Shown: positions 2,455 to 45,093, numbered from the stretch's first letter. The stretch is 64,000 nucleotides of DNA from an uncultured Collinsella sp. (GCA_958372075.1 CATXMO010000001.1:68797-132796), one strand, 5' to 3'. Numbers and translations are program-made. The notes: generated from the letters alone by a model not told the origin.

Positions 2455-2967
2455 GTGGCGGAACACGAGCACGGCTGCGGGTACGAGCACGAGCATCCGC
2501 ACGGGGCGGACGGTGACGCAGGCTGCCACTGTAGTGGCTCCGGCTCCGAGCTGGTCCGCTTTTCGGTTACCGCACCGGACGACCTGCTGCGCCGTTTTGA
2601 CGAACAGATCGCGCGCCGCGGCGACATGGCCAACCGCTCCGAGGCCGTGCGCGACCTGATTCGCGCCTCGATCGCCAAGGAGCAGATGCGCACGCCCGAT
2701 GAGCATGTTATCGGGTCGCTCACCATGATCTACGACCACCATACCGGCGACCTGACGCGCCGTCTGGACGAAGTGCAGCACGACTACACCGACGAGATCG
2801 TATCGACCATGCACGTGCATCTGGATCACCACAACTGCTTAGAGATTCTGGCGCTCAAGGGTCGCGGCGAGCGCGTCTACGAACTAGCCGACCGCCTGCT
2901 GGGCCTGCGCGGCGTTAAGCACGGTGAGCTCACGTGCGCCGCCACCAAGCAGAGCCTGGGGCTGTAG
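2455..2967 (+). CDS. nikR: Nickel-responsive regulator NikR with a His-rich N-terminal extension
   Basis: Ribbon-helix-helix segment ELVRFSVTAPDDLLRRFDEQIARRGDMANRSEAVRDLIRASI. C-terminal nickel-site-like HVHLDHHNC. N-terminal EHEHGCGYEHEHPHG tail. GTG start. Confidence 0.8.
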   Translation: MAEHEHGCGYEHEHPHGADGDAGCHCSGSGSELVRFSVTAPDDLLRRFDEQIARRGDMANRSEAVRDLIRASIAKEQMRTPDEHVIGSLTMIYDHHTGDLTRRLDEVQHDYTDEIVSTMHVHLDHHNCLEILALKGRGERVYELADRLLGLRGVKHGELTCAATKQSLGL

Positions 2968-3008
2968 CGCACCTGTCCCTATTGGTCGGTTTTGATGAGG
3001 GGTGTCGC

Positions 3009-5465
3009 ATGCGACATGTGCATATTCATGTGACGGGCATTGTGCAGGGCGTTGGCATGCGGCCGTTTGTGTATCGCGAGGCCATGGCGCATGGCATTTG
3101 CGGATGGGTGCTCAACGCGGGCGACGGCGTGCATATCGAGGCGCACGCTCCGGCCGATGCGCTCGATGCTTTTGTTGCCGCGCTTTCTGCGCATGCGCCT
3201 GCGGCAGCCCGCGTAGAATATGTCGAGGTTGTGGACCTGGCAGCCCACGGTTGGGATACCGCCAATGAACAGGGTTTTCGCATCGTAGCATCGCAGGACC
3301 AGACCGCGCACACGACGCTCGTCTCACCCGATATCGCCACCTGCGATGATTGTCTGCGCGAGTTGTTCGACCCCGCCGATCGGCGCTATCACTACCCTTT
3401 TATCAACTGTACCAACTGCGGACCGCGCTTTACCATCATCCGGTCGCTGCCTTATGACCGAGCGGCCACGTCGATGAATTGTTTTCCCATGTGTCCTGAG
3501 TGTGCCGCGGAGTATGCCGACCCACTCGACCGGCGTTTTCACGCGCAGCCCGATGCCTGCTTTGATTGCGGGCCGCATATCACGTGGCGCGAAGCGAGCG
3601 TGGGCGGTGAGCCGGGCGAAGCCGCCGCGTTGCCGGCCGTCGGCACCACGCGCGAGACCAGCGACGCCATTATCGACCGCTGTGTTGAGCTGCTGGCCGG
3701 TGGCGGTATCGTCGCCATCAAGGGTCTGGGCGGATTTCACTTGGCATGCGACGCCTCCAACGAGCAGGCGGTAGCCGAGCTTCGCCGCCGCAAACGCCGC
3801 AGCAACAAGCCGCTTGCCGTTATGGTGCGCGACCTTGCCGACGTTGAACGCCTGTGCCATGTCAGCGACGTTGAGCGCGGCTTGCTGACCGGCAGCATTC
3901 GCCCCATTGTGCTGCTGCGCCGACGTGCCGTTTGCGAGAGTGGAGATTCCCCCGACGCCCTCGCGCTCGCGCCGTCCGTCGCGCACGACCTTCCCGAGCT
4001 CGGTGTTATGCTCCCCTACACCCCGCTTCAGCATCTTCTGCTTGCAGCTGCCGCGTCGCACGGTATGCACGCGCTCGTCATGACCAGCGGAAACCTGAGC
4101 GAGGAACCTATCGAGACCGACGATGCCCTTGCATGGGAACATCTTGTTGCCGCCGGCATCGCCGACGCGCTACTTGGCAACGACCGTGCGATTCTCTCAC
4201 GCTACGACGACTCCGTGGTACGTGTGGTCGACGGCACCGTCATGCCTGTGCGTCGCGCACGCGGATATGCGCCGCAACCGTTGTCGCTGCCGGCGCTCGA
4301 CGGCACTGCACCCTGCGTGCTCGCCTGCGGGCCGCAGCAAAAAGCCACGATCGCGCTCACGCGCGAGGACGCCGACGGCCATGTGGCCTGTTTTGTGTCG
4401 CAGCATATCGGCGATGTCGAAAACGGCGCGACCTTCGATGCCTGGAGCGCCGCCCGCGCACGTCTAGAAAACCTCTTTGACCTGACGCCTGCCGCCCTGG
4501 CATGCGACATGCATCCCAACTATCTATCGAGCCAGTGGGCGCGTGAGCGGGCACGGGAGCACAGTCTGCCGCTAATCGAAATCCAGCATCATCATGCGCA
4601 CATCGCGAGCGTAATGGCAGAGGCGATTGTCGCTGGCCGGATTGCGCCTGATGCACGCGTCCTCGGTATTGCCTTCGATGGTACGGGTGCCGGCACCGAC
4701 GGCACCATATGGGGCGGTGAGTTTCTTATCGCCGGCCTTGCCGATTTTGAACGCGCCGCGCACCTGCGCACCTGGGCGCTGCCAGGCGGAGCCACATCCG
4801 TGCGCGATGCCCGGCGCAATGCCTTTGCCCTGCTGAGCGAGCTCGGCCTGCTCGAGCATCCGGGTGCCGCGGGGCTATTGGGCACCCTCGACGAGCAAAC
4901 ACGCAGCGTGACAGCCACCATGATCGAGCGCGGCATCAACAGCCCGCGTACCAGCAGCATGGGGCGTCTCTTTGATGCCGCGGCAGCGATTCTGGGCATC
5001 TGCGACAAGGCAACCTACGAAGGCGAACCCGCCATAGAACTCGAAGCCGCCGCCTGGCGCGCGCTCGACGGTAAGACCGTTCGTCTCGACGGCAATCATA
5101 CGGGCGTATTCACGTCTGCCGACGACTCCCCCATCTTGGACCCCCAACCGCTCATCGAAGCTCTTCTGAATGGAATCGAGGCAGGCGCGCCGGCCGACAG
5201 GCTCGCGCTCGACTTCCATATCGCCATCGTGCGCTCTTCGGCACGAATCGCACGCGAAATCTGCGCGCGCGAAGGCCTCGATACCGTCGCGCTCTCGGGC
5301 GGTGTGTTCATGAACCGGCTTTTGCTTCAGCTCCTTACCCACGAACTCAAAGACGCCGGTCTTGCCGTCTTGGTCCCCCACGCTGTACCCGCCAACGACG
5401 GCTGCATCGCCTACGGTCAGGCCGCCATCGCTCGCGCTCGCCTCGCGCAGACGGCGTTGCGATAG
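3009..5465 (+). CDS. hypF: [NiFe]-hydrogenase maturation carbamoyltransferase HypF
   Basis: Acylphosphatase-like N-terminus (VTGIVQGVGMRPFVYREA). Two CxxC-x18-CxxC zinc fingers. A YrdC-like and a Kae1-like domain. The start is taken at ATG 3009, which follows a GAGGGG RBS; the track ORF begins earlier at 2934. Confidence 0.93.
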   Translation: MRHVHIHVTGIVQGVGMRPFVYREAMAHGICGWVLNAGDGVHIEAHAPADALDAFVAALSAHAPAAARVEYVEVVDLAAHGWDTANEQGFRIVASQDQTAHTTLVSPDIATCDDCLRELFDPADRRYHYPFINCTNCGPRFTIIRSLPYDRAATSMNCFPMCPECAAEYADPLDRRFHAQPDACFDCGPHITWREASVGGEPGEAAALPAVGTTRETSDAIIDRCVELLAGGGIVAIKGLGGFHLACDASNEQAVAELRRRKRRSNKPLAVMVRDLADVERLCHVSDVERGLLTGSIRPIVLLRRRAVCESGDSPDALALAPSVAHDLPELGVMLPYTPLQHLLLAAAASHGMHALVMTSGNLSEEPIETDDALAWEHLVAAGIADALLGNDRAILSRYDDSVVRVVDGTVMPVRRARGYAPQPLSLPALDGTAPCVLACGPQQKATIALTREDADGHVACFVSQHIGDVENGATFDAWSAARARLENLFDLTPAALACDMHPNYLSSQWARERAREHSLPLIEIQHHHAHIASVMAEAIVAGRIAPDARVLGIAFDGTGAGTDGTIWGGEFLIAGLADFERAAHLRTWALPGGATSVRDARRNAFALLSELGLLEHPGAAGLLGTLDEQTRSVTATMIERGINSPRTSSMGRLFDAAAAILGICDKATYEGEPAIELEAAAWRALDGKTVRLDGNHTGVFTSADDSPILDPQPLIEALLNGIEAGAPADRLALDFHIAIVRSSARIAREICAREGLDTVALSGGVFMNRLLLQLLTHELKDAGLAVLVPHAVPANDGCIAYGQAAIARARLAQTALR

Positions 5466-5596
5466 GCTGTTTTGCCAGCCTGCGCGCCGCCGTCTCACAG
5501 GTGTAACGCGTTTGCTCGTGACTCCCGCGAGCGCTACCATCAACTGATGGGTAATTAGGCGCCTATCCAGCGCAAAACGTATAAAAGGGGAACATT

Positions 5597-5857
5597 ATGT
5601 GCCTTGCCGTTCCCGGTAAAGTGGTCAAACGCGACGACGACCTTAAGGCGACCGTCGACATGATGGGCATCGAGCGCCCCGTTTCGCTGCGCCTCGTGCC
5701 GACGGCACAGGTAGGCGACTATATTCTCGTGCACGCCGGCTTTGGCATTCAGATTGTCGACGAGCAGGAAGCCCAAGAGACACTCGAGCTCGTCAATACC
5801 ATGACCGAGCTGGCCAAAGAGGACCAACTCGCCACCAACCCAGCCGAGGCATACTAG
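5597..5857 (+). CDS. hypC: Hydrogenase maturation factor HypC
   Basis: N-terminal MCLAVP motif, 86 aa, AAGGGGA RBS. Confidence 0.9.
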   Translation: MCLAVPGKVVKRDDDLKATVDMMGIERPVSLRLVPTAQVGDYILVHAGFGIQIVDEQEAQETLELVNTMTELAKEDQLATNPAEAY

Positions 5858-8157: not shown

Positions 8158-8826
8158 ATGGCAGCAGCTTTTTCCCATGTGATCTTTGATCTGGATGGCA
8201 CCATCCTCAACACGCTCGAGGACCTGGCGGCCGCCAGCAACCATACCTGCGAGATGCACGGCTGGCCCACGTTTGCCGTAGACGAGTACCGCTACAAGGT
8301 GGGAAACGGCATGCTCAAGCTGGTCGAGCGCTTTATGCCCGCCGAGTACGCGGGCGACGGCCGTATGTTTGAGCAGACGCTTGCCGAGTTTAGGGCCTAT
8401 TACGGCGAGCACAAGGAGGACCACACCTCACCCTACGCCGGCACGATTGAGATGCTCGACCGTCTGCGCACAGCGGGCGTTCAGCTTGCCGTGCTCACCA
8501 ACAAGGATCATATTTCGGCAGCCCCGCTTATCGAGAAATACTTTGGCCCCGATCGCTTTGCGCTGGTACAGGGCCGTGTGGGCGCATTTCCGCCCAAGCC
8601 CGAGGCACCCGTCACGTTGCATGTGATGAAAGAGCTGGGCGCCGATCCGGCAACCACGCTCTATGTGGGCGATTCGAATGTCGATGTTCTGACCGGCCAC
8701 AACGCCGGCCTTAAGAGCGCGGGCGTCAGCTGGGGCTTCCGCGGCCGCGCAGAGCTGGAAGCCGCCGGCGCCGACTACGTGGTAGATACGCAGGACGAAC
8801 TCGCCGAGCTAATCTTGGGCGAGTAG
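8158..8826 (+). CDS. HAD-superfamily hydrolase (phosphoglycolate phosphatase-like)
   Basis: Motif I FDLDGTILNT, motif VGDSxxD near the C-terminus. Start taken at ATG 8158 after a GGCAGGAG RBS. Confidence 0.7.
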   Translation: MAAAFSHVIFDLDGTILNTLEDLAAASNHTCEMHGWPTFAVDEYRYKVGNGMLKLVERFMPAEYAGDGRMFEQTLAEFRAYYGEHKEDHTSPYAGTIEMLDRLRTAGVQLAVLTNKDHISAAPLIEKYFGPDRFALVQGRVGAFPPKPEAPVTLHVMKELGADPATTLYVGDSNVDVLTGHNAGLKSAGVSWGFRGRAELEAAGADYVVDTQDELAELILGE

Positions 8827-8868
8827 CGAGCGACACCGCTTAACGCAGCTGCGACAATTCTTCCACGC

Positions 8869-8914
8869 GGAAAGTGCATCCCGTTTTGGAGCTCCGAAAT
8901 GGGATGCACTTTCC
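8869..8914. repeat. 18-bp-stem hairpin immediately 3' of the HAD hydrolase gene
   Basis: GGAAAGTGCATCCCGTTT / AAATGGGATGCACTTTCC around a 10-nt loop (one G-U pair). Confidence 0.5.
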
Positions 8915-8958
8915 GTTTGAGGCGCGTCGGGGAAACCGTATCCCGTTTCAGAGCAATA

Positions 8959-9010
8959 TTCCGGGTCGCGGTTTCCGCAACCCGCCCCATCCGGAAACCG
9001 CGACCCGGAA
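8959..9010. repeat. Perfect 19-bp inverted repeat (TTCCGGGTCGCGGTTTCCG ... CGGAAACCGCGACCCGGAA)
   Basis: Read directly from the sequence. Flanked by further partial copies of CCGGGTCGC and ATCCCGTTT. Confidence 0.6.
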
Positions 9011-9066
9011 TTCGGCCAAAAAACCGGGTCGCATTTTCCCGAGCATTTGATACGGCGTTGATACAA

Positions 9067-9140
9067 GGAGTGTCCCCAACTGCCGGCAGAAAAGGAACGT
9101 CCCCAAGTGCCGCCTCAATGACTACCATGGCAACGCCGCA
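9067..9140. repeat. Copy of the GTGTCCCCAACTGCCGGCAGAAAAGGAACGTCCCCAAGTGCCG / AATGACTACCATGGCAACGCCG dispersed repeat module
   Basis: Near-identical strings recur at 61510-61575, 57554-57596 (reverse complement) and 17990-18025. Confidence 0.7.
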
Positions 9141-9169
9141 GGTAGAGGACGGGCAGCGAGCGGGCACCA

Positions 9170-9320
9170 GTGCGAACAAATTGGCATGAAAAGAGGACGG
9201 TATAGACCTTCTGGTCATGCCGTCCTCTTTGAATGACAAGTTGTCGCTCTGGTGCCCGCGCAGCGTCGGGCAGTTACGGCGTTTGGTAAAACGCCGTAAC
9301 GAACTACCGCGTAACTCCCC
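9170..9320 (-). other. Structured 3'-flank element of the lipoprotein gene
   Basis: On the minus strand the lipoprotein stop codon is followed by the stem-loop GTTACGGCGTTT-GGTA-AAACGCCGTAAC (9273-9300), the stem AAGAGGACGG...CCGTCCTCTT (9186-9224) and then TTTTCATG. The same architecture occurs 3' of pyrE. Confidence 0.5.
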
Positions 9321-9877
9321 TAGCTCATCATCGCATTCATCATCTCGGTGGTTGCGGAATCGTCAGCAGACCACTCGCCATCGTCATTGGCGGTGTACTT
9401 GAAGGTAACCTTGGTGTCCTTGGTCTTAGCGGCCTTGGTCACGTCGACCATGACCTGGCCGGCCATCTTGTACAGGTCGTCCTCGGAAGGCATCGTATCG
9501 AGCGCCGCGATCTTCTCCTGATACTGGGTGGCGAAATCTTCAACGATCTTGTTCATGGACTTGCAGGTAATGGTGACATCGGCAGTCGCGGTGCCCTTGT
9601 CCTCGTCGACCGTCACATCGCCGATCTTGTAGTCAAAACCCTCGAGATAGCTCTTGGCGTACTCCTTGGGATCGATGCCCAGCTGCTCGAACTCGTCGCC
9701 CGAGGCCTCTTCCAGGCCGGCGAGGAAGTCGTCGCCGCCGTTCTTGACCTCGTCAAACTGCGTCGTAAGATCCTCGGTGATGAGCTCCTCAACCGAAGGA
9801 CCTCCGCAGCCGGAAAGCACAACCACGCACGCGACCAGAACAGCCATCAGGGGCGCAAGCAGCAGCTTCTTCTTCAT
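9320..9877 (-). CDS. Lipoprotein (signal peptide plus LSGC lipobox), function unknown
   Basis: MKKKLLLAPLMAVLVACVVVLSGCGG N-terminus. Start taken at the internal MKKK. Confidence 0.6.
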   Translation of the reverse strand: MKKKLLLAPLMAVLVACVVVLSGCGGPSVEELITEDLTTQFDEVKNGGDDFLAGLEEASGDEFEQLGIDPKEYAKSYLEGFDYKIGDVTVDEDKGTATADVTITCKSMNKIVEDFATQYQEKIAALDTMPSEDDLYKMAGQVMVDVTKAAKTKDTKVTFKYTANDDGEWSADDSATTEMMNAMMS

Positions 9878-10054
9878 GACATTCCTCCCAACAAGCGGCA
9901 CCGCGCTTCCCGACGCGGTGCGCGTCGTAACAATAAGGCCATACTAGCCGATAACGAACACCCCCGGCAAAGCAAAGGCGCAGTCGGCTCGATTTAACGT
10001 CCGAACGGTTTACCGGTCCGCCCAACGCGCAATAAAACGTTCCGCCGCATTGCA

Positions 10055-10092
10055 ATAAAAAAGGGCGGCCGGATAACCCGACCACCCCAAAA
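10055..10092 (-). terminator. Candidate intrinsic terminator of crr
   Basis: Read on the minus strand: GGTGGTCGG-GTTAT-CCGGCCGCC followed by CTTTTTTATT. Confidence 0.45.
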
Positions 10093-10112
10093 CACCCTTA
10101 TGTTGCCGCAGA

Positions 10113-10649
10113 CTACTTGCGGACGACCTTGACGATGGCATCGCCAGCGGAGACAGCGGAGTCAGCCTCGACGGCGAGCTCGACGTCGGCGAACTCGGCG
10201 GTGTTGGACACAGCCACGACGACGCAGTCCTTGTAGCCGGCAGCGGCGATCTTGGCGCGGTCGATCTTGAGCATGGGCTGGCCAGCCTTAACGACATCGT
10301 CGGCCTTGACGAAGCCCTCGAAGCCGTCGCCGTTCATGTTGACGGTATCGACGCCAACGTGCACCAGAACCTCGATGCCGCTATCGGACTGCAGGCCCAC
10401 GGCGTGACCCATGGTGACGGTCACCTTGCCGTCGCAGGGAGCGTAGACCAGATCGTCCTCGGGCCACACGGCGCAGCCCTTGCCCAGGACCTCGCCGCCA
10501 AAGACGGGATCGGGCACATCGGCCATCTTGATGACCTTGCCCTTGACGGGCGAGCACAGCACGTCGGCGCCGGCAGAAGCAGAGATGGAGGACGGAGCAG
10601 CGGCAGTCGCGGGCTCAGCCTTCTTCTTGAACATGTCAAACAGACCCAT
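10113..10649 (-). CDS. crr: PTS glucose-family EIIA component (Crr-like)
   Basis: EIIA-Glc family signatures (VFGGEVLGKGCAV, GIEVLVHVGVDTV, DGFEGFV). Start at MGLFDMFKK after an AGGAGAAAACGT RBS. The longer track ORF is over-extended. Confidence 0.85.
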   Translation of the reverse strand: MGLFDMFKKKAEPATAAAPSSISASAGADVLCSPVKGKVIKMADVPDPVFGGEVLGKGCAVWPEDDLVYAPCDGKVTVTMGHAVGLQSDSGIEVLVHVGVDTVNMNGDGFEGFVKADDVVKAGQPMLKIDRAKIAAAGYKDCVVVAVSNTAEFADVELAVEADSAVSAGDAIVKVVRK

Positions 10650-10789
10650 ACGTTTTCTCCTCTTGATTAAGCGCAACGTTGTGCGCATGCCTATGGTGAT
10701 TATAGTGCCAAATGGTTCAAATGCTAAGGTGGGGACTCGAATCGCGAGCCCATCCCAACGCTTTTCCCCGGTGGCACTCATATTGTCGA

Positions 10790-13398
<2,609 letters not shown>

Positions 13399-13512
13399 GG
13401 CTTGCCAATCGTTGATTTGGTCATAGTTCGTCGTGATTCAGATATTAGCAGAACGCGCCGACGCGTCCATAATCTGTGCTATGCAGCAGATCGATCGAGC
13501 CAAGGAGGATCC

Positions 13513-16104
13513 ATGACCGCGTACTATCAGCAGGTGCTCGAGGGCACATACGACAACCACGTGCTTCCGTTTTTGTGGATGAAGGGCGAGAGCCATAAGA
13601 CCATTGCCGAGTATCTGGAAAAGATCGCCGGCGCCGACATCCACGAGGTCTGTCTCGAAAGCCGCCCACACCCCGATTTTTGCGGCGAGGGCTGGTGGCG
13701 CGACTTGCGCTTTGTCATTGACGAGTGCAGGCAGCTGGGCCTTAAGCTCTGGATCTTGGACGACGCGCACTTCCCCACGGGCTTTGCCAACGGCGCCGTC
13801 AAGGAGGCCGTGCCCGAGCTCCGCAAGATCGTGCTCACGCACCGCACGTTCGACATCGTGGGCCCCACGTCCGCCGCGAGCATCGCGCTCGCCAACATGC
13901 TCGACAAAACGGAGCGCTTCTACGGCGTGACATTTATGCAGGACGGCAGCCCCGTCGACGTCGCTTACCGAGTAATCGACGATGCAGACGGCAACCCCAG
14001 CCGCCTGGTCTTCGATGCACCTGCGGGCCTCACGCAGGCATGCGTGATGTTCACGAGCGGCAAGACCTCCTACAACGAGGACTACATCAATATGGTCGAC
14101 CGCGCCTCGGTGGCGCAGCTCATCGATGCTGTCTACGAGCCGCATTTTGAGCATCTGGGCGATGAGTTTGGCAAGACCATCTTGGGCTTTTTCTCCGATG
14201 AGCCCGGATTTGCCAACGAGAAGGGCACCACGGGCCCCGATGGCATCTCGGACACGCTCATCGGCAAGGCCACCGCGCCCCTACCCTGGTCGGCCGAGCT
14301 TGAGCGTCGCCTGCGCGCGGCACTGGGCGAGCGCTACCTGGCCGAGCTCCCGCACCTGTGGGACCGCGAGCCGGCCGGCGCGCACGTACGCCACGTCTAT
14401 ATGGACATCGCGAGCACCCTCTATAAGGAGTGCTTCTGCGACCAGCTCGGAGACTGGTGCCGCGCGCGCGGCGTGCAGTACATCGGCCACGTTATCGAGG
14501 ACAAGGACTGCCACGCGCGCCTGGGCGTGGGCGCCGGGCACTACTTCCGCGCCGTGGGCGGTCAGGACATGGCGGGCGTCGACATCGTGATCAACCAGCT
14601 GGTACCCGGCATGGACCGCGGCCTTCACAGCTACGGACGCGGCGTGTGGGACCTCGAGTTCTATAACTACGTGCTGCCCAAGCTGGGCTCCTCGGCAGCA
14701 CACCTCGACCCCAAAAAGCAGGGGCGCTGCATGGCCGAGGTCTTTGGCGCATTTGGATGGCACGAAGGCCTACGCGAGATGAAGTGGATCGCCGATCATT
14801 TTTTGGTGCGCGGCGTCAATTGGTTTGTGCCGCATGCCTTTAGCATGGCCGCCTTCCCCGACTGGGACTGCCCGCCGCATTTCTATGCGCATGGCCAAAA
14901 CCCCCAGTTTGCACACTTTGGGCAGCTCATGAGCTACATGAACCGTACGGCGAGCCTGCTGAGCGGCGGGCGCGCAACGACCCCGGTGGCGCTTCTCTAC
15001 CATGCGGACGCCGAGTGGACAGGCGAGGCGAACTTTATGCAGCATGCCGCCTCCGAGCTTATGCGCGCGCAGGTCGACTTTGACATCGTGCCGGCAGAGG
15101 CATTTGAGGACGCAGGGCGCTATGCCGTTGAAATTGCCGCAGACGGTAGCGACTTTGGCGTGAACGGCCAGGCATACCGCTGCCTGGTGATGCCCGGAGC
15201 CGAGTTTGTCGGCGGAGCCGTGCTCGACTTTGCCGCGCGCGCCGCAGCCGCAGGTGTTGCCGTGTACGCGCTGGATGAGTTGCCGAGCAAGCGCTACGAC
15301 GGTGATATTGCAGCCCGTGAGGGCTTTGCCTCCGTGGATGCAGCCGCGGTCGCCGGCATCAAGCTCCTGGCAACCGCCGAGCTCGCAGGCACGCTTGCCG
15401 ACGCCGGTATGCAGACCGTGGTTTGTGCCGAGTCCCAGCCCTGGCTGCGCGCACTGCGCTACGAGCGGGCGGGCGAGACCTATCTGATGCTCGTCAACGA
15501 GCATCCCAAGCAGGGTATCTCCACTCAGATTGCGCTTGCCGACGGCATACCCGTTGCAGGCGCGCGCCTCGACCTGCTCAACGGCACCGATCCCGCCGCC
15601 TTTGACGGCACGCTCGAGCTGGCTCCCTACGAGAGCTGCATCGTGGTCCTTGGGGCTACAGGTTCCGCCGGCGCGGCAACTGCTGGAGACGAAGCCACAT
15701 GCGTCGACGGGCCCTGGGCGGTTGCCTTCTCTGCCCCTGGTACCGATGCCTTTGGCGAGTCTGTTGAGCTTGCAGACCTGCACGACCTTTCCTCGGCCGA
15801 GTTCCCCGGCAAGGCCGGCACATTCCGCTACCGGGCCTCCTTTGTCCTGGGCGAAGCGGCCACCCGCACCGTCATCGACCTTGGCGAGGTCTTTGAGACC
15901 GCAACCGTCACCCTCGACGGCAAATCCCTCGGCACCCGCATCTGTCCGCCTTACCGCTTTGAGGCCGCCGCACTTTTAGCCGGTGAGCACGCGCTCACGA
16001 TTGACATCATCAACACCCTCGACCACGCCGTCCCCGACGTGTTCGGCATGACCGAGCCCTCCGAGCCCAGCGGCCTACTCGGTCCCGTCCGCGTGCTCGG
16101 GTAG
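13513..16104 (+). CDS. Large putative glycoside hydrolase (~864 aa), family not assigned
   Basis: The start at ATG 13513 is preceded by AAGGAGGA. The track ORF from 13054 overlaps the AraC gene and is not used. The layout (TIM-barrel-like N-terminal region and a beta-sandwich-like C-terminal region) resembles multidomain glycosidases. Divergent from the AraC regulator. Confidence 0.45.
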   Translation: MTAYYQQVLEGTYDNHVLPFLWMKGESHKTIAEYLEKIAGADIHEVCLESRPHPDFCGEGWWRDLRFVIDECRQLGLKLWILDDAHFPTGFANGAVKEAVPELRKIVLTHRTFDIVGPTSAASIALANMLDKTERFYGVTFMQDGSPVDVAYRVIDDADGNPSRLVFDAPAGLTQACVMFTSGKTSYNEDYINMVDRASVAQLIDAVYEPHFEHLGDEFGKTILGFFSDEPGFANEKGTTGPDGISDTLIGKATAPLPWSAELERRLRAALGERYLAELPHLWDREPAGAHVRHVYMDIASTLYKECFCDQLGDWCRARGVQYIGHVIEDKDCHARLGVGAGHYFRAVGGQDMAGVDIVINQLVPGMDRGLHSYGRGVWDLEFYNYVLPKLGSSAAHLDPKKQGRCMAEVFGAFGWHEGLREMKWIADHFLVRGVNWFVPHAFSMAAFPDWDCPPHFYAHGQNPQFAHFGQLMSYMNRTASLLSGGRATTPVALLYHADAEWTGEANFMQHAASELMRAQVDFDIVPAEAFEDAGRYAVEIAADGSDFGVNGQAYRCLVMPGAEFVGGAVLDFAARAAAAGVAVYALDELPSKRYDGDIAAREGFASVDAAAVAGIKLLATAELAGTLADAGMQTVVCAESQPWLRALRYERAGETYLMLVNEHPKQGISTQIALADGIPVAGARLDLLNGTDPAAFDGTLELAPYESCIVVLGATGSAGAATAGDEATCVDGPWAVAFSAPGTDAFGESVELADLHDLSSAEFPGKAGTFRYRASFVLGEAATRTVIDLGEVFETATVTLDGKSLGTRICPPYRFEAAALLAGEHALTIDIINTLDHAVPDVFGMTEPSEPSGLLGPVRVLG

Positions 16105-16188
16105 CGACCCCGCGCAACAGCCCCTTACGAGACGCCCGGCTTAGCCGGGCGTTTTATTTACCGTTATGATTGATACATCGCGATACGA

Positions 16189-17058
16189 ATGCATGGGAGC
16201 CATATGGATATCAAGCGCAAAATCACCCAGGGCAAGGGGCTCACCCCCACCGAGCAGCAGCTCGGGCAGACGGTTCTCGCCATGGGTGAGAACGTTCGCG
16301 GGCTCTCCATCAAGGAATTTGCGCACCAGACCAATGTCTCCGTCGCGAGCATCCACCGCTTTTGCAAAAAGCTCGGCCTTGAGGGCTTTAAGGAGCTCAA
16401 GGTCGAGCTGGTACGCGCAGCCTTGCGCGCAGACTCCGCCGCCGAGGTGGATATCAACTTTCCCTTCGATGCAACCTCCACCCCTGCGCAGGTGATGGAG
16501 CGCATGGAGGGGCTCTACCAGACCACGCTGGCCGAAACGCAGGAGCTGCTCGACTCTGCACAGCTCGACCACGCCGCCAAGCTCATCATGCGCGCCGGCA
16601 CCGTGGACATCTACACGGGCTCGCATAACCTGTATCCAGCGGGAATGTTCCGCGATCGCCTGCTCTCGTCCGGCAAAAGCGCGACGTGCCACGACAGTGT
16701 CGAGGCGCAGGTGCGTACGGCGCTCGCCTCGGGCCCCGACCATGTGGCAATCGTTATCTCCTACAGCGGCCTTGCCCCCAACCTCAGGGAGATCTTGCCA
16801 ATCCTCAGCAGTCGACATGTCCCGGTCATCGTCATCGGCACGCCGTACTGTGCCCGCATTCACCCCGGCTTTGCCGCCTATCTCACGGTAAGCGACCACG
16901 AGAGCATGACGCACCGCATCACGCAGTTCGCCAGCCATATCGCCGTGCAATACGTACTCGATTCGCTCTATAGCAGCTACTTTGCCAAAGATTACGCCCG
17001 CTGCTCCGAGTTCCTAGAGCGCTCGTTCCCCTACACCCGCCTGCCCGGACTCAAGTAG
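16189..17058 (+). CDS. RpiR/MurR-family transcriptional regulator (HTH_6 plus SIS domain)
   Basis: N-terminal HTH (GLSIKEFAHQTNVSVASIHRFCKKLGLEGFKELK) and a C-terminal SIS-like sugar-phosphate-binding domain. Confidence 0.85.
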   Translation: MHGSHMDIKRKITQGKGLTPTEQQLGQTVLAMGENVRGLSIKEFAHQTNVSVASIHRFCKKLGLEGFKELKVELVRAALRADSAAEVDINFPFDATSTPAQVMERMEGLYQTTLAETQELLDSAQLDHAAKLIMRAGTVDIYTGSHNLYPAGMFRDRLLSSGKSATCHDSVEAQVRTALASGPDHVAIVISYSGLAPNLREILPILSSRHVPVIVIGTPYCARIHPGFAAYLTVSDHESMTHRITQFASHIAVQYVLDSLYSSYFAKDYARCSEFLERSFPYTRLPGLK

Positions 17059-17059
17059 C

Positions 17060-17165
17060 GACGAGCGTGGATTTTTGGACACTCAGATAACGAGCGTGGA
17101 TAATCTCCCACTTTGAGCCCGCACACAGGCCAAAACCGGGAGATTATCCACGCTCATTTTGGGTC
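17060..17165. repeat. B-element copy 1 (~105-nt conserved hairpin repeat)
   Basis: The unit ACGAGCGTGGAT is duplicated, followed by the 18-bp stem GAGCGTGGATAATCTCCC / GGGAGATTATCCACGCTC around a 28-nt loop. Near-identical copies at 34363-34468 and 43288-43395. Confidence 0.8.
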
Positions 17166-17200
17166 CCCTGGGAACGCATGAGGAGGGCGGAAGACAGCCG

Positions 17201-17878
17201 TTATTTGCGAGGCGTCAGCGACGTAAAGAGTCCGTGTTGGTTGCAGTAAAGATATATCCTGCCGCGCCCGGTAATATGGAAGCGCGGCTGCACCGATTGC
17301 TCTGGATAGAGCTTCTTAAAGCAGATGCCGTCCATAGTCGCATATGCCACAAAGCTAATGTAGTGATCCTTGGTCATGGGATGATCGAGCGTGACGTACC
17401 AATCGTCCTCGATGCGCTCGATGGAAAAGGCGTGGTCCGCGTCCGGCTCTTCGGCCTCCTGGGGAAACATCGTGGAGCCACAGCAGCTAAAGCTGCCTTC
17501 TCCGAGCGCGTGCACAACGTTTCCGCAGATAGGGCAAACGTAAAAGACGCCTTTGAGCATATTGCCTGCACGGTTGGCGTTGGCCCGAATGTCACCAGCC
17601 AAAAGCTCGGCCACGCTTATGCCGAGTCTCTGGGCCAAAGGCTCAACGAGGGAAATGTCGGGAAGGCCGCGGCCGGATTCCCACTTGCTGACGGCTTTAT
17701 CGGTCACGCCAAGGCTTTCCGCCAGGGCGCGCTGGGTGAGGCCGCGCTCTTCGCGCAGCTGCTTGATGGCATGCGCTGCCAAAAAAGTATGGGAGGCATT
17801 GGTTTGCCGTGTCTGGTTCATGGGCTGTCCAATCAAATTGAAGAAATGGAGTGAACCGGTTCGACAGTCAGTATCCAT
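17201..17878 (-). CDS. HTH-XRE DNA-binding domain fused to a complete desulfoferrodoxin (2Fe superoxide reductase) domain
   Basis: The N-terminal segment LTQRALAESLGVTDKAVSKWESGRGLPDISLVEPLAQRLGISVAELL is a Cro/C1-type HTH. The C-terminus aligns motif-by-motif with Dfx. Center I: CPICGN...CC. Center II: DHA, DHPMTKDHYI and YCNQHG supply the His/His/His/Cys/His ligands. The start is either 17878 or the internal ATG at 17821. Confidence 0.75.
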   Translation of the reverse strand: MDTDCRTGSLHFFNLIGQPMNQTRQTNASHTFLAAHAIKQLREERGLTQRALAESLGVTDKAVSKWESGRGLPDISLVEPLAQRLGISVAELLAGDIRANANRAGNMLKGVFYVCPICGNVVHALGEGSFSCCGSTMFPQEAEEPDADHAFSIERIEDDWYVTLDHPMTKDHYISFVAYATMDGICFKKLYPEQSVQPRFHITGRGRIYLYCNQHGLFTSLTPRK

Positions 17879-17926
17879 TTGAAGGCCAGGCTCGACAACC
17901 TACGCTGCGTAGACATGCGCCAATCG

Positions 17927-18030
17927 AACGAGCGCGGATTTTTGGACGCTCATCCTGAGTAGTCATTTAAGAACGCCCCAATGACTACTCATTTATGTCT
18001 GTCCCCAATGACTACCAAGGCAACGCCGAT
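17927..18030. repeat. Truncated B-element 5' half plus A-unit repeats
   Basis: CGAGCGCGGATTTTTGGACGCTCA is followed by TCATTTAAGAACGCCCCAATGACTACTCATTTATGTCTGTCCCCAATGACTACCAAGGCAACGCCG. Confidence 0.7.
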
Positions 18031-18039
18031 GTTTTGGCA

Positions 18040-18191
18040 ACGACAGCGAAAACCCGCCAGAGCGAGCAAGGTGCCTTGAAACGAGGCGGCATTGATCTTT
18101 CGATCATGCCGCCGAAGTTGAAAGGCAGATTGCCGCTCTGGCGGGTTTGCAGCGTCGAGCCGTTACGCGGGTTGGTAAACCCGCGTAACTA
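18040..18191 (-). other. Structured 3'-flank element of pyrE (second copy of the 9170-9320 architecture)
   Basis: The stem-loop GTTACGCGGGTT-GGTA-AACCCGCGTAAC (18162-18189) abuts the pyrE stop. A second hairpin GGCGGCATTGATC-TTTC-GATCATGCCGCC lies upstream at ~18086-18114. Base changes relative to copy 1 are compensatory. Confidence 0.5.
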
Positions 18192-18875
18192 CTCCCGAGC
18201 TCCGTACTGCTCGTAGTAGGCGTCGATAGCGGTCTTGAGCTCGTCGTCGATGACGACTTTGCCGTCGATCTCGTGGTTGTAGAGGGTCTCGACGACCTCG
18301 GCCATGGAGACGATGCTCGCGACGGGGAAACCGTACTTGGCCTCGATCTCCTTCTGCGCGGTGGTCACGCCACCCTTGCCGACCTCCATGCGGTTGAGGG
18401 ACACGATGAGGCCCTTGATCTCGACATCGGCAGCAGCCTTGACCTTGGGATAGGTCTCGTCGATGGACTTACCGCTGGTAGTGACGTCCTCGACCATGAC
18501 CACGCGGTCGCCGTCCTGGGGCTCGTAGCCCAGCAGGTTGCCCTTGTCGGCGCCGTGGTCCTTGGCCTCCTTGCGATCGCAGCAGTACTTGACCTCCTTG
18601 CCGTACAGCTCGTGGTAGGCAATTGCGGTCACGACGGCCAGCGGAATACCCTTGTAGGCCGGTCCAAACAGCACGTCAAAGTCGTCGCCAAAGTTATCGT
18701 GGATGGCCTGGGCGTAATACTCGCCCAGCTTCTTGAGCTGGTAGCCCGTCACATAGGCGCCGGCGTTCATAAAGAACGGGGACTGACGGCCGCTCTTGAG
18801 CGTAAAGCTGCCGAATTTAAGAACGTCGGACTCAACCATGAACTTGATGAACTCTTGCTTGTAAGCCTCCATGCG
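18189..18875 (-). CDS. pyrE: Orotate phosphoribosyltransferase
   Basis: PRPP-binding loop VVMVEDVTTSG. Start at MEAYKQEF after a GAGGAG RBS. The longer track ORF is over-extended. Confidence 0.88.
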   Translation of the reverse strand, partial: RMEAYKQEFIKFMVESDVLKFGSFTLKSGRQSPFFMNAGAYVTGYQLKKLGEYYAQAIHDNFGDDFDVLFGPAYKGIPLAVVTAIAYHELYGKEVKYCCDRKEAKDHGADKGNLLGYEPQDGDRVVMVEDVTTSGKSIDETYPKVKAAADVEIKGLIVSLNRMEVGKGGVTTAQKEIEAKYGFPVASIVSMAEVVETLYNHEIDGKVVIDDELKTAIDAYYEQYGARE

Positions 18876-25866: not shown

Positions 25867-27453
25867 CTAGTCTTGGGGTGTCCAGGACCAGAAGAAGTTG
25901 ATGAGGGCTACGCGCGAGGAGGCACCTGTCTTTTTGTTAATCGAAGCGATGTGGCGATAGAGCGTGGAACGCGAAAGGAAGAGTGCCGCCGCCACGTCCT
26001 GCACGCTGTCGTCCGAAACGACCAGTGCCTCCAGAACATCGCGCTCGCGCTTGGTGAGCCCAAAGGCGGCAACGAAGCCATCGAGCCGATCGTCAAACGA
26101 AAGCTCCGGCGCCTCCAGGGGCACCGTGTCGGCCTGGCCGGGCTCACAGCTCACGCCAAGATCGTCGGTGGCAAGCGCCAGCCTGCCGCGCGTCGCCTCG
26201 CCCTCACCGTCTTGTCCAAACTGTCCCAACAGCGAAATCGCGATGCCGACAAACAGCACGAGCACGACGCTCACTGCCGCCAGCACGTTTTGACTCGAGA
26301 TAATCGCCACTGCCGGAGCCGTCACGAGCATCGAGCAAACGTTGTTGATAACACGGCCCATGCACGGCCACAGATACGCCCAGCGGGCATACATCGAAAT
26401 CGCGGCGAACTTCGCGGTGAAGAACACCACGAAAAAGCCCGTGCCAAGGTAAAAGATAATCGTGGCGGCAAGCGTGTTGCCACCGTTGCCATCGGTGATA
26501 AGTACAAAGAACGAGAGCGTGGACAGCATGGCGGCGCACGTCATGATGATATTCATATACGAACGCCCACGCAGGTCATACAGGACGCCGGCGGCAAGGG
26601 CGCTCACAACCAGCAGCAAGCGCGGCCAGTCGCCCAGATCGATAGCGCCAGCGGCATGCGAGGTCGTAAGGCCGGCATTGAGGGCCGCGAACACGCCGGT
26701 GAGGCAAGCGGTCGCCACCGTCAGACGCACCACGGCACCCTGAAAGGCCGCCTTTGCCTCGGGGTCATCGTGCCACCTGGCGCCACGCTCCGACGCATCG
26801 ACCGATAGCTCGGCAATCTCGACCTCGAACTCGGGCGCAGGCTCATCACGCAATTTAGCGCGGCGGACACCGTGAAGCAGCCCCACCAGCGCAATCGCAC
26901 AGGCAATGAGAACAGACTGCTGGGGAATGCCCGCAGGCATCACCATATGGTTGAGCACCTGCACCAAAATGTCCACAGCATAGGAAACCGCCACGGTGCG
27001 CGCCAGGCAGGGCGTCTGCGCAAAACGCCGCGCAAGATTGGCATGGGCGGTCGATCCGCAATAGCCCAGGGCGCAGCACGCCACCAGGCCGCCGGCAATT
27101 ACTACCTCAAACCGCATTGCCATAATCATCAGCAGCAACGCCGATACCAACAGCACGCCCGTAATATCGCTCGTCGCATCGATCGTCTGGGGACGGCGAT
27201 AGTACAGAAATGGGCGCACGAAAAAGCCAATCACGCTCGCGCCGACAACGATGCTCTCGTAGATGACGACCTCACTCGATGGCACGAACTCGGCCATGCG
27301 CGCATCAAAGAAATACTCGCACGCCAAAAACGTGAAGAAGAACAGCGCTAGGCACAGAATCTCCCGCATGCCCCGGCGCAAATATGCGGTTGTGTCTCCC
27401 AGGTCCCTCATGGTAACCCCCACCCGCTTTGTTGTCCGGAACACCATTTTCAT
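25867..27453 (-). CDS. LuxR-family transcriptional regulator with an N-terminal polytopic membrane domain
   Basis: About ten predicted TM helices are followed by a C-terminal LuxR HTH (TKRERDVLEALVVSDDSVQDVAAALFLSRSTLYRHIASINKK). Confidence 0.8.
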   Translation of the reverse strand: MKMVFRTTKRVGVTMRDLGDTTAYLRRGMREILCLALFFFTFLACEYFFDARMAEFVPSSEVVIYESIVVGASVIGFFVRPFLYYRRPQTIDATSDITGVLLVSALLLMIMAMRFEVVIAGGLVACCALGYCGSTAHANLARRFAQTPCLARTVAVSYAVDILVQVLNHMVMPAGIPQQSVLIACAIALVGLLHGVRRAKLRDEPAPEFEVEIAELSVDASERGARWHDDPEAKAAFQGAVVRLTVATACLTGVFAALNAGLTTSHAAGAIDLGDWPRLLLVVSALAAGVLYDLRGRSYMNIIMTCAAMLSTLSFFVLITDGNGGNTLAATIIFYLGTGFFVVFFTAKFAAISMYARWAYLWPCMGRVINNVCSMLVTAPAVAIISSQNVLAAVSVVLVLFVGIAISLLGQFGQDGEGEATRGRLALATDDLGVSCEPGQADTVPLEAPELSFDDRLDGFVAAFGLTKRERDVLEALVVSDDSVQDVAAALFLSRSTLYRHIASINKKTGASSRVALINFFWSWTPQD

Positions 27454-27582: not shown

Positions 27583-27640
27583 GTATCCCCCAACTGCCAC
27601 TCATTTAAGTACGTCCCCAATGAGTACCCAATGAGTAAGC
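27583..27640. repeat. A-unit repeat copy
   Basis: GAGTATCCCCCAACTGCC followed by ACTCATTTAAGTACGTCCCCAATGAGT. Confidence 0.7.
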
Positions 27641-34344: not shown

Positions 34345-34531
34345 GAGTGTCCCCAAGTGCCAAACGAGCGGGGATTTTTGGACACCCAAACAACGAGAGT
34401 GGACAATCTCCCACTTTGAGCCCACAAGCAGGCCAAAAATGGGAGATTATCCACTCTCATTCTGCGGGTACTCATTGGGGACGTACTTAAATGAGTAGTT
34501 TCACTCATTTAAGTGCGTCCCCAATGAGTAG
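34345..34531. repeat. Composite repeat: GAGTGTCCCCAAGTGCC, B-element copy 2 (34363-34468) and an inverted pair of A-units
   Basis: The B stem is GAGAGTGGACAATCTCCC / GGGAGATTATCCACTCTC. A reverse-complement A-unit and a forward A-unit follow. Confidence 0.8.
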
Positions 34532-43222: not shown

Positions 43223-43425
43223 TTAAGTACGTCCCCAATGAGTGGACCAGCGACTAGTCGTTTAAGAACGTCCCCAATGACTAAGACAAAACGAGCGAGG
43301 ATTTTTGGACGCCCAAATGGCGAGAGTGGATAATCTCCCACTTTGAGCCCACAAACAGGCTAAAAACGGGAGATTATCCACTCTCATTCTGCGGGCACTC
43401 ATTTAAGTACGTCCCCAATGAGTGC
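43201..43425. repeat. Composite repeat: GGTGTCCCCAGGGGCC, two A-units, B-element copy 3 (43288-43395) and a terminal A-unit
   Basis: The B stem is GAGAGTGGATAATCTCCC / GGGAGATTATCCACTCTC (perfect). The A-units read ACTCATTTAAGTACGTCCCCAATGAGT. Confidence 0.8.
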
Positions 43426-43509: not shown

Positions 43510-44943
<1,434 letters not shown>

Positions 44944-45093
44944 TCAATCCTTTCGCACGCTGTTTGTCGTGGTTTCAGTATCCCCGTAAGCAGCGCGCTA
45001 CTCAACGGCAACGACGCAGGCCGACACTTCTTTTCGCACACGGCGGCCCGGCAGCCGCCCCTGCCTGACACTTTCTGATACCGCCGCCCCAAA

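What the first reader, a model, noticed from the sequence alone, without database searches (positions are those of the whole stretch)
9170..9320. Shared structured 3' element behind two unrelated genes (a lipoprotein and pyrE) with a covarying GGTA-loop hairpin
Immediately after the stop codons of the lipoprotein gene (9320) and of pyrE (18189), both on the minus strand, the same architecture appears. First comes a 12-bp stem with a GGTA/TACC loop: GTTACGGCGTTT...AAACGCCGTAAC in one copy and GTTACGCGGGTT...AACCCGCGTAAC in the other. Only the internal GGCG/CGCC versus GCGG/CCGC differs, and those differences are fully compensatory. Then comes a conserved CGCTCTGG...GCAGCGTCG segment, a second hairpin, and A-unit repeats. 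Conservation of structure with compensatory change across two loci points to a functional RNA 3' module (stability element, terminator variant or protein-binding site). It could equally be a hairpin-ended mobile element that preserves its ends.
Basis: seen in the sequence. Interest (0 to 1): 0.55.

Follow-up and report, generated by a model that had tools for sequence, protein, structure and literature searches.

The report
Stop-codon-anchored hairpin repeat family in Collinsella
The two look-alike structures behind pyrE and a lipoprotein gene are copies of a previously undescribed, roughly 185-base hairpin-forming repeat that is scattered through Collinsella gut bacteria and nearly always sits directly behind a gene's stop codon; it is a new relative of the known bacterial intergenic repeats (REP, ERIC), not a dedicated regulatory RNA.

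Summary
Both window copies (minus strand, 9125-9322 and 18015-18191) share one layout: a perfect 12-bp hairpin, a ~115-nt imperfect hairpin, then a ~30-nt tail.

It is not a two-locus motif. A pattern scan hit its 120-locus limit, and every hit was Collinsella or Coriobacteriaceae. Copies follow about 40 unrelated genes. The first hairpin starts -1 to +5 nt from the stop codon in 42 of 43 contexts, in sense orientation (TAG 33, TAA 9, TGA 1).

Covariation is strong: 93.7% of cells pair and 37 of 51 pairs show double changes. It gives no sign that the sense RNA is the selected fold. G-U equals A-C, and the antisense strand folds better in 112 of 116 copies.

Stems occur as discrete alleles that are reshuffled between loci and strains, with hybrids, truncations, nested copies and clean deletions. 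There is no Rfam match, no U-tract terminator and no link to the genus's RAYT transposase.

Best reading: a new REP/ERIC-like mosaic repeat that spreads at the DNA level. It is transcribed as the start of 3' UTRs, where it probably blocks exonucleases or is processed.

The parts
9320..9322 (-). TAG stop codon of the lipoprotein gene (ORF 9320-9901), the anchor of copy 1
9301..9319 (-). Spacer GGGA, a truncated older hairpin-1 arm GTTACGCGG (9307-9315), then TAG (9304-9306) and TTC. This is the remnant of an earlier copy in front of the present one.
   Evidence: The same nested form recurs at this locus in other strains, alongside the simple forms TAG-GGGG-hairpin and TAG-TTC-hairpin.
9273..9300 (-). 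Hairpin 1, copy 1: perfect 12-bp stem, TACC loop (GTTACGGCGTTT TACC AAACGCCGTAAC)
9154..9268 (-). Long imperfect hairpin, copy 1. The base is CGACGCTGC (9260-9268) and TCGCTG (9154-9159). The apex GGCATGACC-AGAA-GGTCTATACC is at 9199-9221. It carries conserved 2x2 pyrimidine mismatches and a 1-nt bulge in the 3' arm.
9125..9153 (-). Tail of copy 1 (CCCGTCCTCTACCTGCGGCGTTGCCATGG), one of three recurrent tail types
9067..9124 (-). Adjoining units of other repeat families: a partial A-unit TAGTCATTGAGG, then two GGGGAC units (GGCACTTGGGGACGTTCC.., GGCAGTTGGGGACACTCC). These are neighbours, not part of the element proper.
   Evidence: (D10)
18189..18191 (-). TAG stop codon of pyrE; its G is the first base of hairpin 1
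18162..18189 (-). Hairpin 1, copy 2 (GTTACGCGGGTT TACC AACCCGCGTAAC)
18044..18157 (-). Long imperfect hairpin, copy 2. The base is CGACGCTGC (18149-18157) and TCGCTG (18044-18049). The apex GGCATGATC-GAAA-GATCAATGCC is at 18088-18110. The stem allele is AAACCCGCCAGAGCGG / CGCTCTGGCGGGTTT.
18015..18043 (-). Tail of copy 2 (TCGTTGCCAAAACATCGGCGTTGCCTTGG)
17959..18014 (-). Two A-units (TAGTCATTGGGGACAGACATAAATGAG and TAGTCATTGGGGCGTTCTTAAATGACTAC), a separate repeat family that abuts the tail
   Evidence: (D3)

Best explanation
The two structures are copies of a Collinsella-specific interspersed mosaic repeat of about 185 nt. I estimate roughly 10-30 copies per Mb, so a few tens per genome.

Build. 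Each copy has a perfect 12-bp hairpin, then a ~115-nt imperfect hairpin with conserved internal mismatches and bulges, then a ~30-nt tail.

Shown. The family sits directly behind TAG or TAA stop codons of unrelated genes, in the sense orientation. Its stems exist as discrete, internally complementary alleles. These alleles are reshuffled between loci and strains.

Inferred, spread. It spreads and is homogenised at the DNA level, either by insertion at or next to the TA of a stop codon or by ectopic recombination between copies. The element begins with a purine, so an insertion into TA-R regenerates the stop codon in one orientation only. That would account for three things at once: the sense-only orientation, the excess of TAG and the near absence of TGA. 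Complementarity of the arms would be kept by palindrome-specific mutation (template switching) plus selection for a foldable single strand.

Inferred, effect. Because of where it sits, the element is transcribed as the first part of the 3' UTR. The GC-rich hairpin at the stop codon would act as a barrier to 3'-to-5' exonucleases. The long, mismatch-containing hairpin would be a likely double-strand RNase substrate. This is how REP, ERIC and Correia elements behave. It is not a canonical terminator and not a gene-specific regulatory RNA.
For: Family size and host range:
- nhmmer found 155 hits in 1.0 Mb of those loci and 2 in the window.
- Only 1 hit came from viral contigs.

Anchoring:
- 118 of 129 copies have a sense ORF ending just upstream. 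The distance from the stop codon to the base of the long stem peaks at 31-37 nt, or 2-7 nt when hairpin 1 is absent.
- In 43 distinct gene contexts the spacer is -1 to +5 nt in 42. Stop codons are TAG 33, TAA 9, TGA 1, against a background of 50%, 33% and 17%.
- Distances to the next gene on the 3' side are broad.
- The upstream genes are unrelated: pyrE, a lipoprotein, and C-termini that look like peptide deformylase, a sigma factor and an ABC ATPase (these three assignments are mine, made by eye).

Structure:
- 93.7% of cells pair, against 76.4% in shuffles. 37 of 51 pairs show double changes. The covariation score is 0.433, against 0.146 in shuffles and at most 0.093 in slid controls.
- At least 9 fully complementary variants of the hairpin-1 stem exist.

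DNA-level dynamics:
- Strains with identical PyrE carry pyrE copies only 73-100% identical to each other.
- One lipoprotein-HAD spacer has 43 different sequences of 67-557 nt, with at least 5 stem alleles, clean hairpin deletions (L184, L216) and an apex-crossover hybrid (L176).
- There are solo, tandem and nested hairpin-1 units and swapped apical hairpins.
- Stray 3' halves of other copies lie downstream of complete copies.
- At least 10 of 80 metagenome contigs end inside the element.
- In L069 a relative sharing only the apical module is inserted between direct repeats CTAGGCGG, where related loci are uninterrupted.

Not a known RNA and not a terminator.

Same genomic ecosystem:
- The genus has a domesticated RAYT-like transposase with flanking hairpin repeats.
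- An IS110 element is inserted in a neighbouring repeat unit.
Against: - No unambiguous empty site and no proven target-site duplication was found for the family proper.
- No enzyme is linked to it. The RAYT-like gene is flanked by a different hairpin family, and its 10 loci hold no copy.
- Strict single orientation is unusual for REP, ERIC or MITE elements.
- Conserved bulges and 2x2 mismatches persist across all stem alleles. This argues for recognition of a specific folded strand, not merely a decaying palindrome.
- The proposed effect on mRNA rests on analogy only. No transcript data were available.
- Copy number per genome is only a rough density estimate.
Confidence: 0.6

Rival explanations
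1. It is a dedicated cis-acting RNA module of the 3' UTR. The sense transcript folds into the two hairpins, and a Collinsella protein (or the terminating ribosome) recognises the conserved loops and bulges to set mRNA stability or translation termination. Copies persist because that function is selected.
For: - Strict sense orientation and -1 to +5 nt anchoring to the stop codon.
- Strong covariation.
- The loops (TACC, AGAA), the 2x2 internal loops and the 1-nt bulges are conserved across different stem alleles. A neighbouring pair changes in a compensated way while the mismatch is kept.
- From my own knowledge, not verified here: Liang, Rudd and Deutscher (2015) reported that E. coli REP hairpins within about 15 nt of a stop codon stall ribosomes and lower expression.
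Against: - G-U (171 cells) and A-C (172 cells) are equally common, and A-C exceeds G-U after dereplication.
- The antisense strand is predicted more stable in 112 of 116 copies, by 8.4 kcal/mol on average.
- Host genes share no function.
- Hybrids with non-complementary arms, truncated copies and solo modules persist.
- Part of the loop conservation was imposed by my search pattern.
Confidence: 0.15
2. It is a substrate for single-strand DNA recombination or transposition. One folded DNA strand, possibly the bottom strand, is recognised by an HUH/Y1 enzyme (RAYT or IS200-like) or another recombinase. That enzyme inserts the unit 3' of a xTAG or TA-R target, and stop codons are simply the neutral targets.
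For: - A single-copy, syntenic Y1_Tnp (RAYT-like) gene exists in Collinsella and its relatives. It is flanked by inverted hairpin repeats that also abut stop codons.
- TAG precedes hairpin 1 even in an internal tandem unit where no ORF ends (CTTAG-GTTCC in L026 and L063).
- TAG is enriched and TGA nearly absent.
- Extrahelical bases are conserved and the antisense fold is more stable.
- The neighbouring A-unit starts exactly with a gene's TAG at window 61628-61630.
Against: - The RAYT is flanked by a different family with an AGGGACAGG loop. No copy of this element lies in 10 RAYT loci.
- No hairpin like hairpin 1 is found at the 3' end of the element.
- No empty site was found. The G before TAG is not conserved.
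Confidence: 0.15
3. It is an unusual intrinsic transcription terminator (a hairpin cluster) that has been duplicated behind many genes.
For: - It lies immediately after stop codons.
- Some stem alleles end in GGGTTTTCGCTG, which scores as one weak terminator-like site.
- One computational study proposes that hairpin clusters close to stop codons terminate without U tracts (PMC8355165).
Against: - No hairpin-plus-U-tract site at copy 1, and only a chance-level match at copy 2.
- Most alleles lack any T run.
- The same genome uses ordinary hairpin-plus-U-tract terminators, for example after ORFs 13054-16104, 25867-27453 and 51810-52835.
- In some loci my ORF-based scan places the next same-strand start 22-57 nt after the long hairpin, where termination would be polar. 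That scan was confounded by shadow ORFs.
Confidence: 0.05

Closest known systems
REP / BIME elements of Enterobacteria and Pseudomonas (RAYT-associated)
   Same: - Multi-copy, GC-rich palindromic units in the 3' regions of genes.
- Mosaic combination with other short motifs.
- Often close to stop codons.
- Targets of IS elements.
- The host genome carries a single-copy, vertically inherited RAYT-like gene flanked by hairpin repeats.
   Different: - The element is about 185 nt with a 115-nt hairpin, not a 35-nt unit.
- It occurs in one orientation only, not in inverted pairs.
- The GTAG head is not conserved; only TAG or TA is.
- It does not flank the RAYT gene.
ERIC (IRU) and Neisseria Correia/NEMIS elements (long palindromic MITE-like repeats inserted at TA and co-transcribed with genes)
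   Same: - A 100-150-nt imperfect palindrome in transcribed intergenic DNA.
- TA at the insertion boundary is plausible.
- The expected effect is on mRNA processing and stability through a long RNA hairpin.
   Different: - ERIC and Correia elements occur in both orientations, have terminal inverted repeats with a fixed sequence, and show proven TA duplications.
- Here the stems vary as covarying alleles.
- A separate 5' hairpin and a tail are attached.
- Orientation is fixed, and no duplication has been proven.
MIRU of Mycobacterium (Actinomycetota)
   Same: An actinobacterial intergenic repeat oriented like the flanking genes and abutting or overlapping their stop codons.
   Different: - MIRUs are tandem direct repeats of 40-100 bp that contain small ORFs coupling adjacent genes.
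- They are not hairpin modules.
Integron attC sites
   Same: - Imperfect palindromes directly behind ORFs, in one orientation.
- Structure is conserved while sequence varies.
- Extrahelical bases are conserved.
   Different: - There are no RYYYAAC / GTTRRRY core sites at the two ends.
- Copies are not in cassette arrays.
- No integrase is nearby.
- The host genes are core genes such as pyrE.

Membership tests
Any Rfam 15 family (including Collinsella-1) | Covariance-model match at the gathering score, or any match at E <= 10 | tested here: not met
   No hit in the window at gathering scores. No family overlaps either copy at E <= 10 in window 8800-18400.
REP / BIME (RAYT-associated) | Short imperfect palindrome with a conserved 5' GTAG/GTGG head | tested here: inconclusive
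   Hairpin 1 is a 28-nt perfect palindrome. TA directly precedes it in 18 of 43 contexts, and a stop codon lies within 5 nt in 42 of 43. The base before TAG is not conserved.
REP / BIME (RAYT-associated) | Units occur as inverted pairs (REPIN/BIME) and in both orientations | tested here: not met
   118 of 129 copies are in sense orientation behind an ORF. No inverted pairs of the element were seen.
REP / BIME (RAYT-associated) | The cognate repeats flank the RAYT gene | tested here: not met
   The RAYT-like gene (Y1_Tnp) is flanked by hairpins with an AGGGACAGG loop. nhmmer finds no copy of the element in 10 RAYT loci.
ERIC / Correia-type MITE | Imperfect palindrome of 100-150 nt, many intergenic copies | tested here: met
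   The long hairpin is about 115 nt with z-scores of -8 and -11. More than 120 loci were found.
ERIC / Correia-type MITE | TA target-site duplication, and empty sites in related genomes | tested here: inconclusive
   TA or TAG lies at the 5' boundary and often near the 3' boundary. The only clean insertion case, L069 with a CTAGGCGG duplication, is a distant relative sharing just the apical module. No empty site was found for the family proper.
ERIC / Correia-type MITE | Terminal inverted repeats of fixed sequence; both orientations found | tested here: not met
   The arms vary as covarying alleles. Only one orientation is found.
Intrinsic (Rho-independent) terminator | GC-rich hairpin directly followed by a U tract | tested here: not met
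   No site at copy 1 and one chance-level site inside copy 2. Canonical terminators are present elsewhere in the window.
Integron attC | R''/R' core sites RYYYAAC ... GTTRRRY at the two ends of the palindrome | tested here: not met
   GTTACGC and GCGTAAC both deviate from the consensus, and both lie within the small first hairpin rather than at the ends of the long one.
Integron attC | Arrays of cassettes next to an intI integrase | not tested
   Copies follow dispersed core genes. No search for integron integrases was run.
IS200/IS605-derived non-autonomous elements (PATE) | Similar subterminal hairpins at both ends, and a fixed 4-5-nt target 5' of the left end | tested here: inconclusive
   The left flank is xTAG or TA-R. 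No hairpin like hairpin 1 occurs at the 3' end. No IS with matching ends was found in about 1 Mb.

The most novel reading that the evidence does not exclude
The element is a mobile '3'-UTR cassette' that uses the stop codon itself as a safe integration site. A folded single DNA strand, carrying the conserved bulges and tandem mismatches, is recognised by an HUH/Y1-type or other recombinase. The unit is inserted at the TA of TAA or TAG in one orientation, which regenerates a TAG. If so, a whole genus would have its gene ends furnished with exchangeable structured modules, and other Collinsella hairpin repeats (A-units and the RAYT-flanking units) would follow the same stop-codon rule.
Probability: 0.25. 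Interest if true: 0.65.

Novelty: new variant of a known kind. Interest (0 to 1): 0.4.

Why it matters
Collinsella is a common and very diverse human-gut genus, and its non-coding DNA has hardly been described.

- Annotation. This family and its neighbours fill many 3' intergenic regions. They break metagenome assemblies, vary between strains that carry identical proteins, and could be mistaken for structured RNAs by covariation screens. The case shows that strong covariation in a palindromic repeat does not establish RNA function.
- Biology. The near-absolute anchoring to TAG and TAA stop codons in one orientation is unusual among bacterial repeats. It gives a testable model, stop-codon-regenerating insertion, for how selfish hairpin elements find neutral sites.
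- Possible function. If the hairpins alter mRNA decay or translation termination, tens of genes per genome would be affected, and differently in different strains.

Tried and rejected
- Rfam at gathering scores and at E <= 10 gave no match, so it is not Collinsella-1 or any curated family.
- The terminator scan found no site beyond chance level.
- The viral-contig scan gave one hit. Its upstream sequence resembles the lipoprotein gene end, so it is probably the chromosomal lipoprotein locus and there is no phage link.
- The search for empty sites failed. An orthologue without the element (L106) has unrelated downstream DNA, so it gives no boundaries. All 49 lipoprotein-HAD spacers carry hairpin 1.
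- The long-hairpin core is flanked by direct CGCTG repeats, which suggested a 5-bp duplication. No 'hairpin 1 + tail' sequence without the core exists in 1.3 Mb, so this stays unsupported.
- A tblastn with IS200 TnpA and E. coli RAYT sequences, both written from memory, found one Y1 gene (L090). It proved to be a syntenic RAYT-like gene flanked by a different repeat.
- My ORF-based classification of downstream context was confounded by shadow ORFs in this GC-rich DNA. I used it only for the breadth of 3' distances.
- Literature searches found no description of the element. The Liang et al. 2015 paper on REPs near stop codons could not be retrieved and is cited from memory only.
- The attC-like reading was rejected because core sites and arrays are lacking.

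Full report
OBSERVATION. On the minus strand, GTTACGGCGTTT-TACC-AAACGCCGTAAC lies at 9273-9300, 19 nt after the lipoprotein TAG at 9320-9322. GTTACGCGGGTT-TACC-AACCCGCGTAAC lies at 18162-18189, and its first G is the G of the pyrE TAG. The generic pattern occurs exactly twice in 64 kb, against 0.02 matches expected from shuffles. The copies align at 78% over about 190 nt.

ANATOMY. The 'conserved CGCTCTGG..GCAGCGTCG segment' is the 5' arm of a ~115-nt imperfect hairpin whose 3' arm lies about 70 nt downstream. The 'second hairpin' is the apex of that long hairpin. MFE z-scores are -8.1 and -10.9. Each copy therefore reads: stop codon, hairpin 1 (28 nt), 4-nt spacer, long hairpin, ~30-nt tail, then units of other repeat families.

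ORGANISM AND FAMILY. The 227-aa PyrE is identical in Collinsella aerofaciens genomes, including CP048433.1. Rfam has no match at gathering scores or at E <= 10.
Every hit was Collinsella or Coriobacteriaceae.
- A viral scan gave one hit.
- nhmmer finds 155 hits in 1.0 Mb of those loci and only the two in the window.
- Subtracting the seeded copy per locus gives about 9 extra copies per Mb, and the window has 31 per Mb. That suggests a few tens of copies per genome. This is a rough estimate.

ANCHORING TO STOP CODONS.
- 118 of 129 copies have a sense ORF of at least 80 codons ending just upstream. The distance from the stop codon to the base of the long stem peaks at 31-37 nt, which is hairpin 1 plus a few bases. 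It is 2-7 nt when hairpin 1 is missing.
- In 43 distinct gene contexts, hairpin 1 starts -1 to +5 nt from the stop in 42. The stops are TAG 33, TAA 9, TGA 1. Long ORFs in the same DNA use TAG 50%, TAA 33%, TGA 17%.
- The host genes are unrelated: pyrE, a lipoprotein, and C-termini that look like peptide deformylase, a sigma factor and an ABC ATPase (these three assignments are mine, made by eye).
- On the 3' side, distances to the next gene are broad.
- An orthologue without the element (L106) stops at the same codon, so the element does not truncate the protein.
- TAG also precedes hairpin 1 in an internal tandem unit where no ORF ends (CTTAG-GTTCC in L026 and L063). A TA lies at most of the other nested junctions.

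COVARIATION.
- On 116 distinct copies (A3), RNAalifold predicts 39 pairs in the long hairpin, 27 of them with double changes.
- With hairpin 1 added, 93.7% of cells pair against 76.4% in shuffles. 37 of 51 pairs have double changes. The covariation score is 0.433, against 0.146 in shuffles (0 of 500 reached it) and at most 0.093 in slid controls.
- Hairpin 1 has at least 9 fully complementary stem variants.

WHICH STRAND, WHICH MOLECULE. The data do not single out the sense RNA.
- G-U and A-C cells are equal (171 against 172). After dereplication A-C exceeds G-U.
- The conserved 2x2 mismatches are pyrimidine-pyrimidine on the sense strand, which makes them tandem G-A/A-G on the antisense strand.
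- The antisense strand is predicted more stable in 112 of 116 copies, by 8.4 kcal/mol on average. The copies are not independent, so only the direction of this result matters.
- The 2x2 mismatches, a 1-nt bulge in the 3' arm and a bulge near the apex are kept across all stem alleles. They are also kept in copies found without my pattern, once with a compensated neighbouring pair. This suggests that some folded single strand is recognised.
- Part of the loop conservation (TTCAA and TTTCA) was imposed by my search pattern.

DNA-LEVEL DYNAMICS.
- Stems come as discrete alleles, for example GCGGGCCGCATTTGG, AAACCCGCCAGAGCGG, AAACGCCCCTAAGCGG and GCGCCGCCCAGAGCG. Each has a matching 3' arm. They combine freely with hairpin-1 variants, apical hairpins and three tail types.
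- Strains with identical PyrE carry pyrE copies only 73-100% identical to each other.
- The lipoprotein-HAD spacer in 49 metagenome contigs has 43 different sequences of 67-557 nt. Hairpin 1 is always present. There are at least 5 long-stem alleles, clean deletions of the long hairpin (L184, L216/217) and an apex-crossover hybrid with non-complementary arms (L176). At least 10 of 80 contigs end inside the element.
- Other forms include solo hairpin-1 units, tandem units, truncated older arms in front of newer copies (among them window 9307-9315) and stray 3' halves downstream of full copies.
- About 3-4 of 116 copies are true hybrids or truncations.
- In L069 a relative sharing only the apical module lies between direct repeats CTAGGCGG, where related loci are uninterrupted.
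- No empty site was found for the family proper, and the CGCTG repeats flanking the core have no empty counterpart.

THE REPEAT ECOSYSTEM.
- The 3' flanks hold other hairpin families: A-units (TAGTCATT-GGGGACGTTCTT-AAATGACTA), B-units and others. Most share a GGGGAC or GGGACAGG loop.
- One A-unit starts exactly with the TAG of ORF 61628-63034.
- Collinsella and its relatives carry a single-copy Y1_Tnp (RAYT-like) gene. It lies in a conserved neighbourhood with argS and genes for a CarD-like protein, an HD-domain protein and an aldehyde dehydrogenase, although gene order varies between species. Orthologues are 48-97% identical.
- That gene is flanked by inverted hairpins with an AGGGACAGG loop. 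Their stems differ between species and they abut the neighbours' TAA stops.
- These flanking repeats are not the element studied here.
- In L002 an IS110 element sits inside an A-unit loop that is intact in L001.

WHAT IT IS NOT.
- Not a canonical terminator. Neither window copy has a hairpin-plus-U-tract site beyond chance level, while ordinary terminators occur elsewhere in the window.
- Not phage-borne.
- Not attC-like, because core sites and arrays are absent.
- Not described in the searchable literature.

INTERPRETATION.
- Shown: this is a genus-specific, multi-copy, mosaic hairpin repeat. It is anchored to TAG and TAA stops in sense orientation and turns over rapidly by recombination.
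- Inferred, spread: it propagates at the DNA level. Because the unit starts with a purine, insertion into the TA of a stop codon regenerates the stop in one orientation only. This would explain the orientation, the TAG excess and the TGA deficit without invoking RNA function. Arm complementarity can be maintained by quasi-palindrome template switching (an established mutational mechanism; my knowledge) together with selection for a foldable strand.
- Inferred, effect: as the first part of the 3' UTR, hairpin 1 should block 3' exonucleases, and the long mismatched hairpin should be an RNase III-type substrate, as in REP, ERIC and Correia elements (my knowledge). It may also slow terminating ribosomes.
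- Rivals: a dedicated RNA module, a substrate for single-strand DNA recombination, and a terminator variant. None is excluded, and each is weighted in the report sections.

VERDICT. This is a new variant of the known kind 'interspersed palindromic intergenic repeats'. Interest is moderate. Its most unusual trait is the stop-codon anchoring in a single orientation.

Noticed in passing
L090:4503-5260 (-); L132-L140 (gene at 2501-3259): Collinsella and its relatives carry a single-copy Y1_Tnp (RAYT-like) gene in a conserved neighbourhood with argS and genes for a CarD-like protein, an HD-domain protein and an aldehyde dehydrogenase. Gene order varies between species. Orthologues are 48-97% identical. 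The gene is flanked by inverted hairpins with a conserved AGGGACAGG loop whose stems differ between species, and these hairpins abut the neighbours' TAA stop codons.
   Followed up: partly
L002:~4160-5600 versus L001:~4000-4060: An IS110-family element (DEDD transposase) is inserted inside the loop of an A-unit (TAGTCATTGGG | IS | GACGTTCTTAAATGACTA). The A-unit is intact in another strain, so the small repeats serve as IS landing sites.
   Followed up: partly
window 61600-61630 (-), and about 20 further sites (e.g. 27588-27625, 34476-34529, 43206-43423): A-units and related GGGGAC-loop hairpin repeats are scattered through the window in both orientations. One begins exactly with the TAG stop of ORF 61628-63034.
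   Followed up: partly
window 9320-18189: The segment between pyrE and the EIIA-lipoprotein genes varies between strains. Some strains have pyrE followed almost directly by a 187-aa gene, EIIA and the lipoprotein gene (L001). Others carry IS110 or IS3 (L002, L007). Others carry HTH/RpiR/glycosidase genes, as in the window. The two element copies bracket this variable region.
   Followed up: no
L025:~1760-1906, L028, L084, L114: A different ~140-nt long palindrome family starts within 14 nt of the stop codon of another gene (C-terminus ...GFAPIVKL.), and directly after it in L025 and L084. Stop-abutting long hairpins are therefore a general trait of the genus.
   Followed up: no
window 10790-12376 (-) and 43543-45078 (+): Two paralogous stretches about 72-81% identical at the DNA level (repeat families D1, D4, D5, D8). 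The first lies in a glycoside hydrolase family 1 gene; the second ORF was not scanned against Pfam.
   Followed up: no
window 8827-9020: The same convergent spacer holds a very stable hairpin right after the HAD gene stop (GGAAAGTGCATCCCGTTTTGGAGCTCCGAAATGGGATGCACTTTCC). It also holds a further inverted repeat, GCGACCCGG...CCGGGTCGC.
   Followed up: no
A3 alignment (116 copies): The antisense strand of the element is predicted to fold more stably than the mRNA-sense strand in 112 of 116 copies. The conserved mismatches are pyrimidine-pyrimidine on the sense strand and tandem G-A on the antisense strand. This is unexplained.
   Followed up: partly
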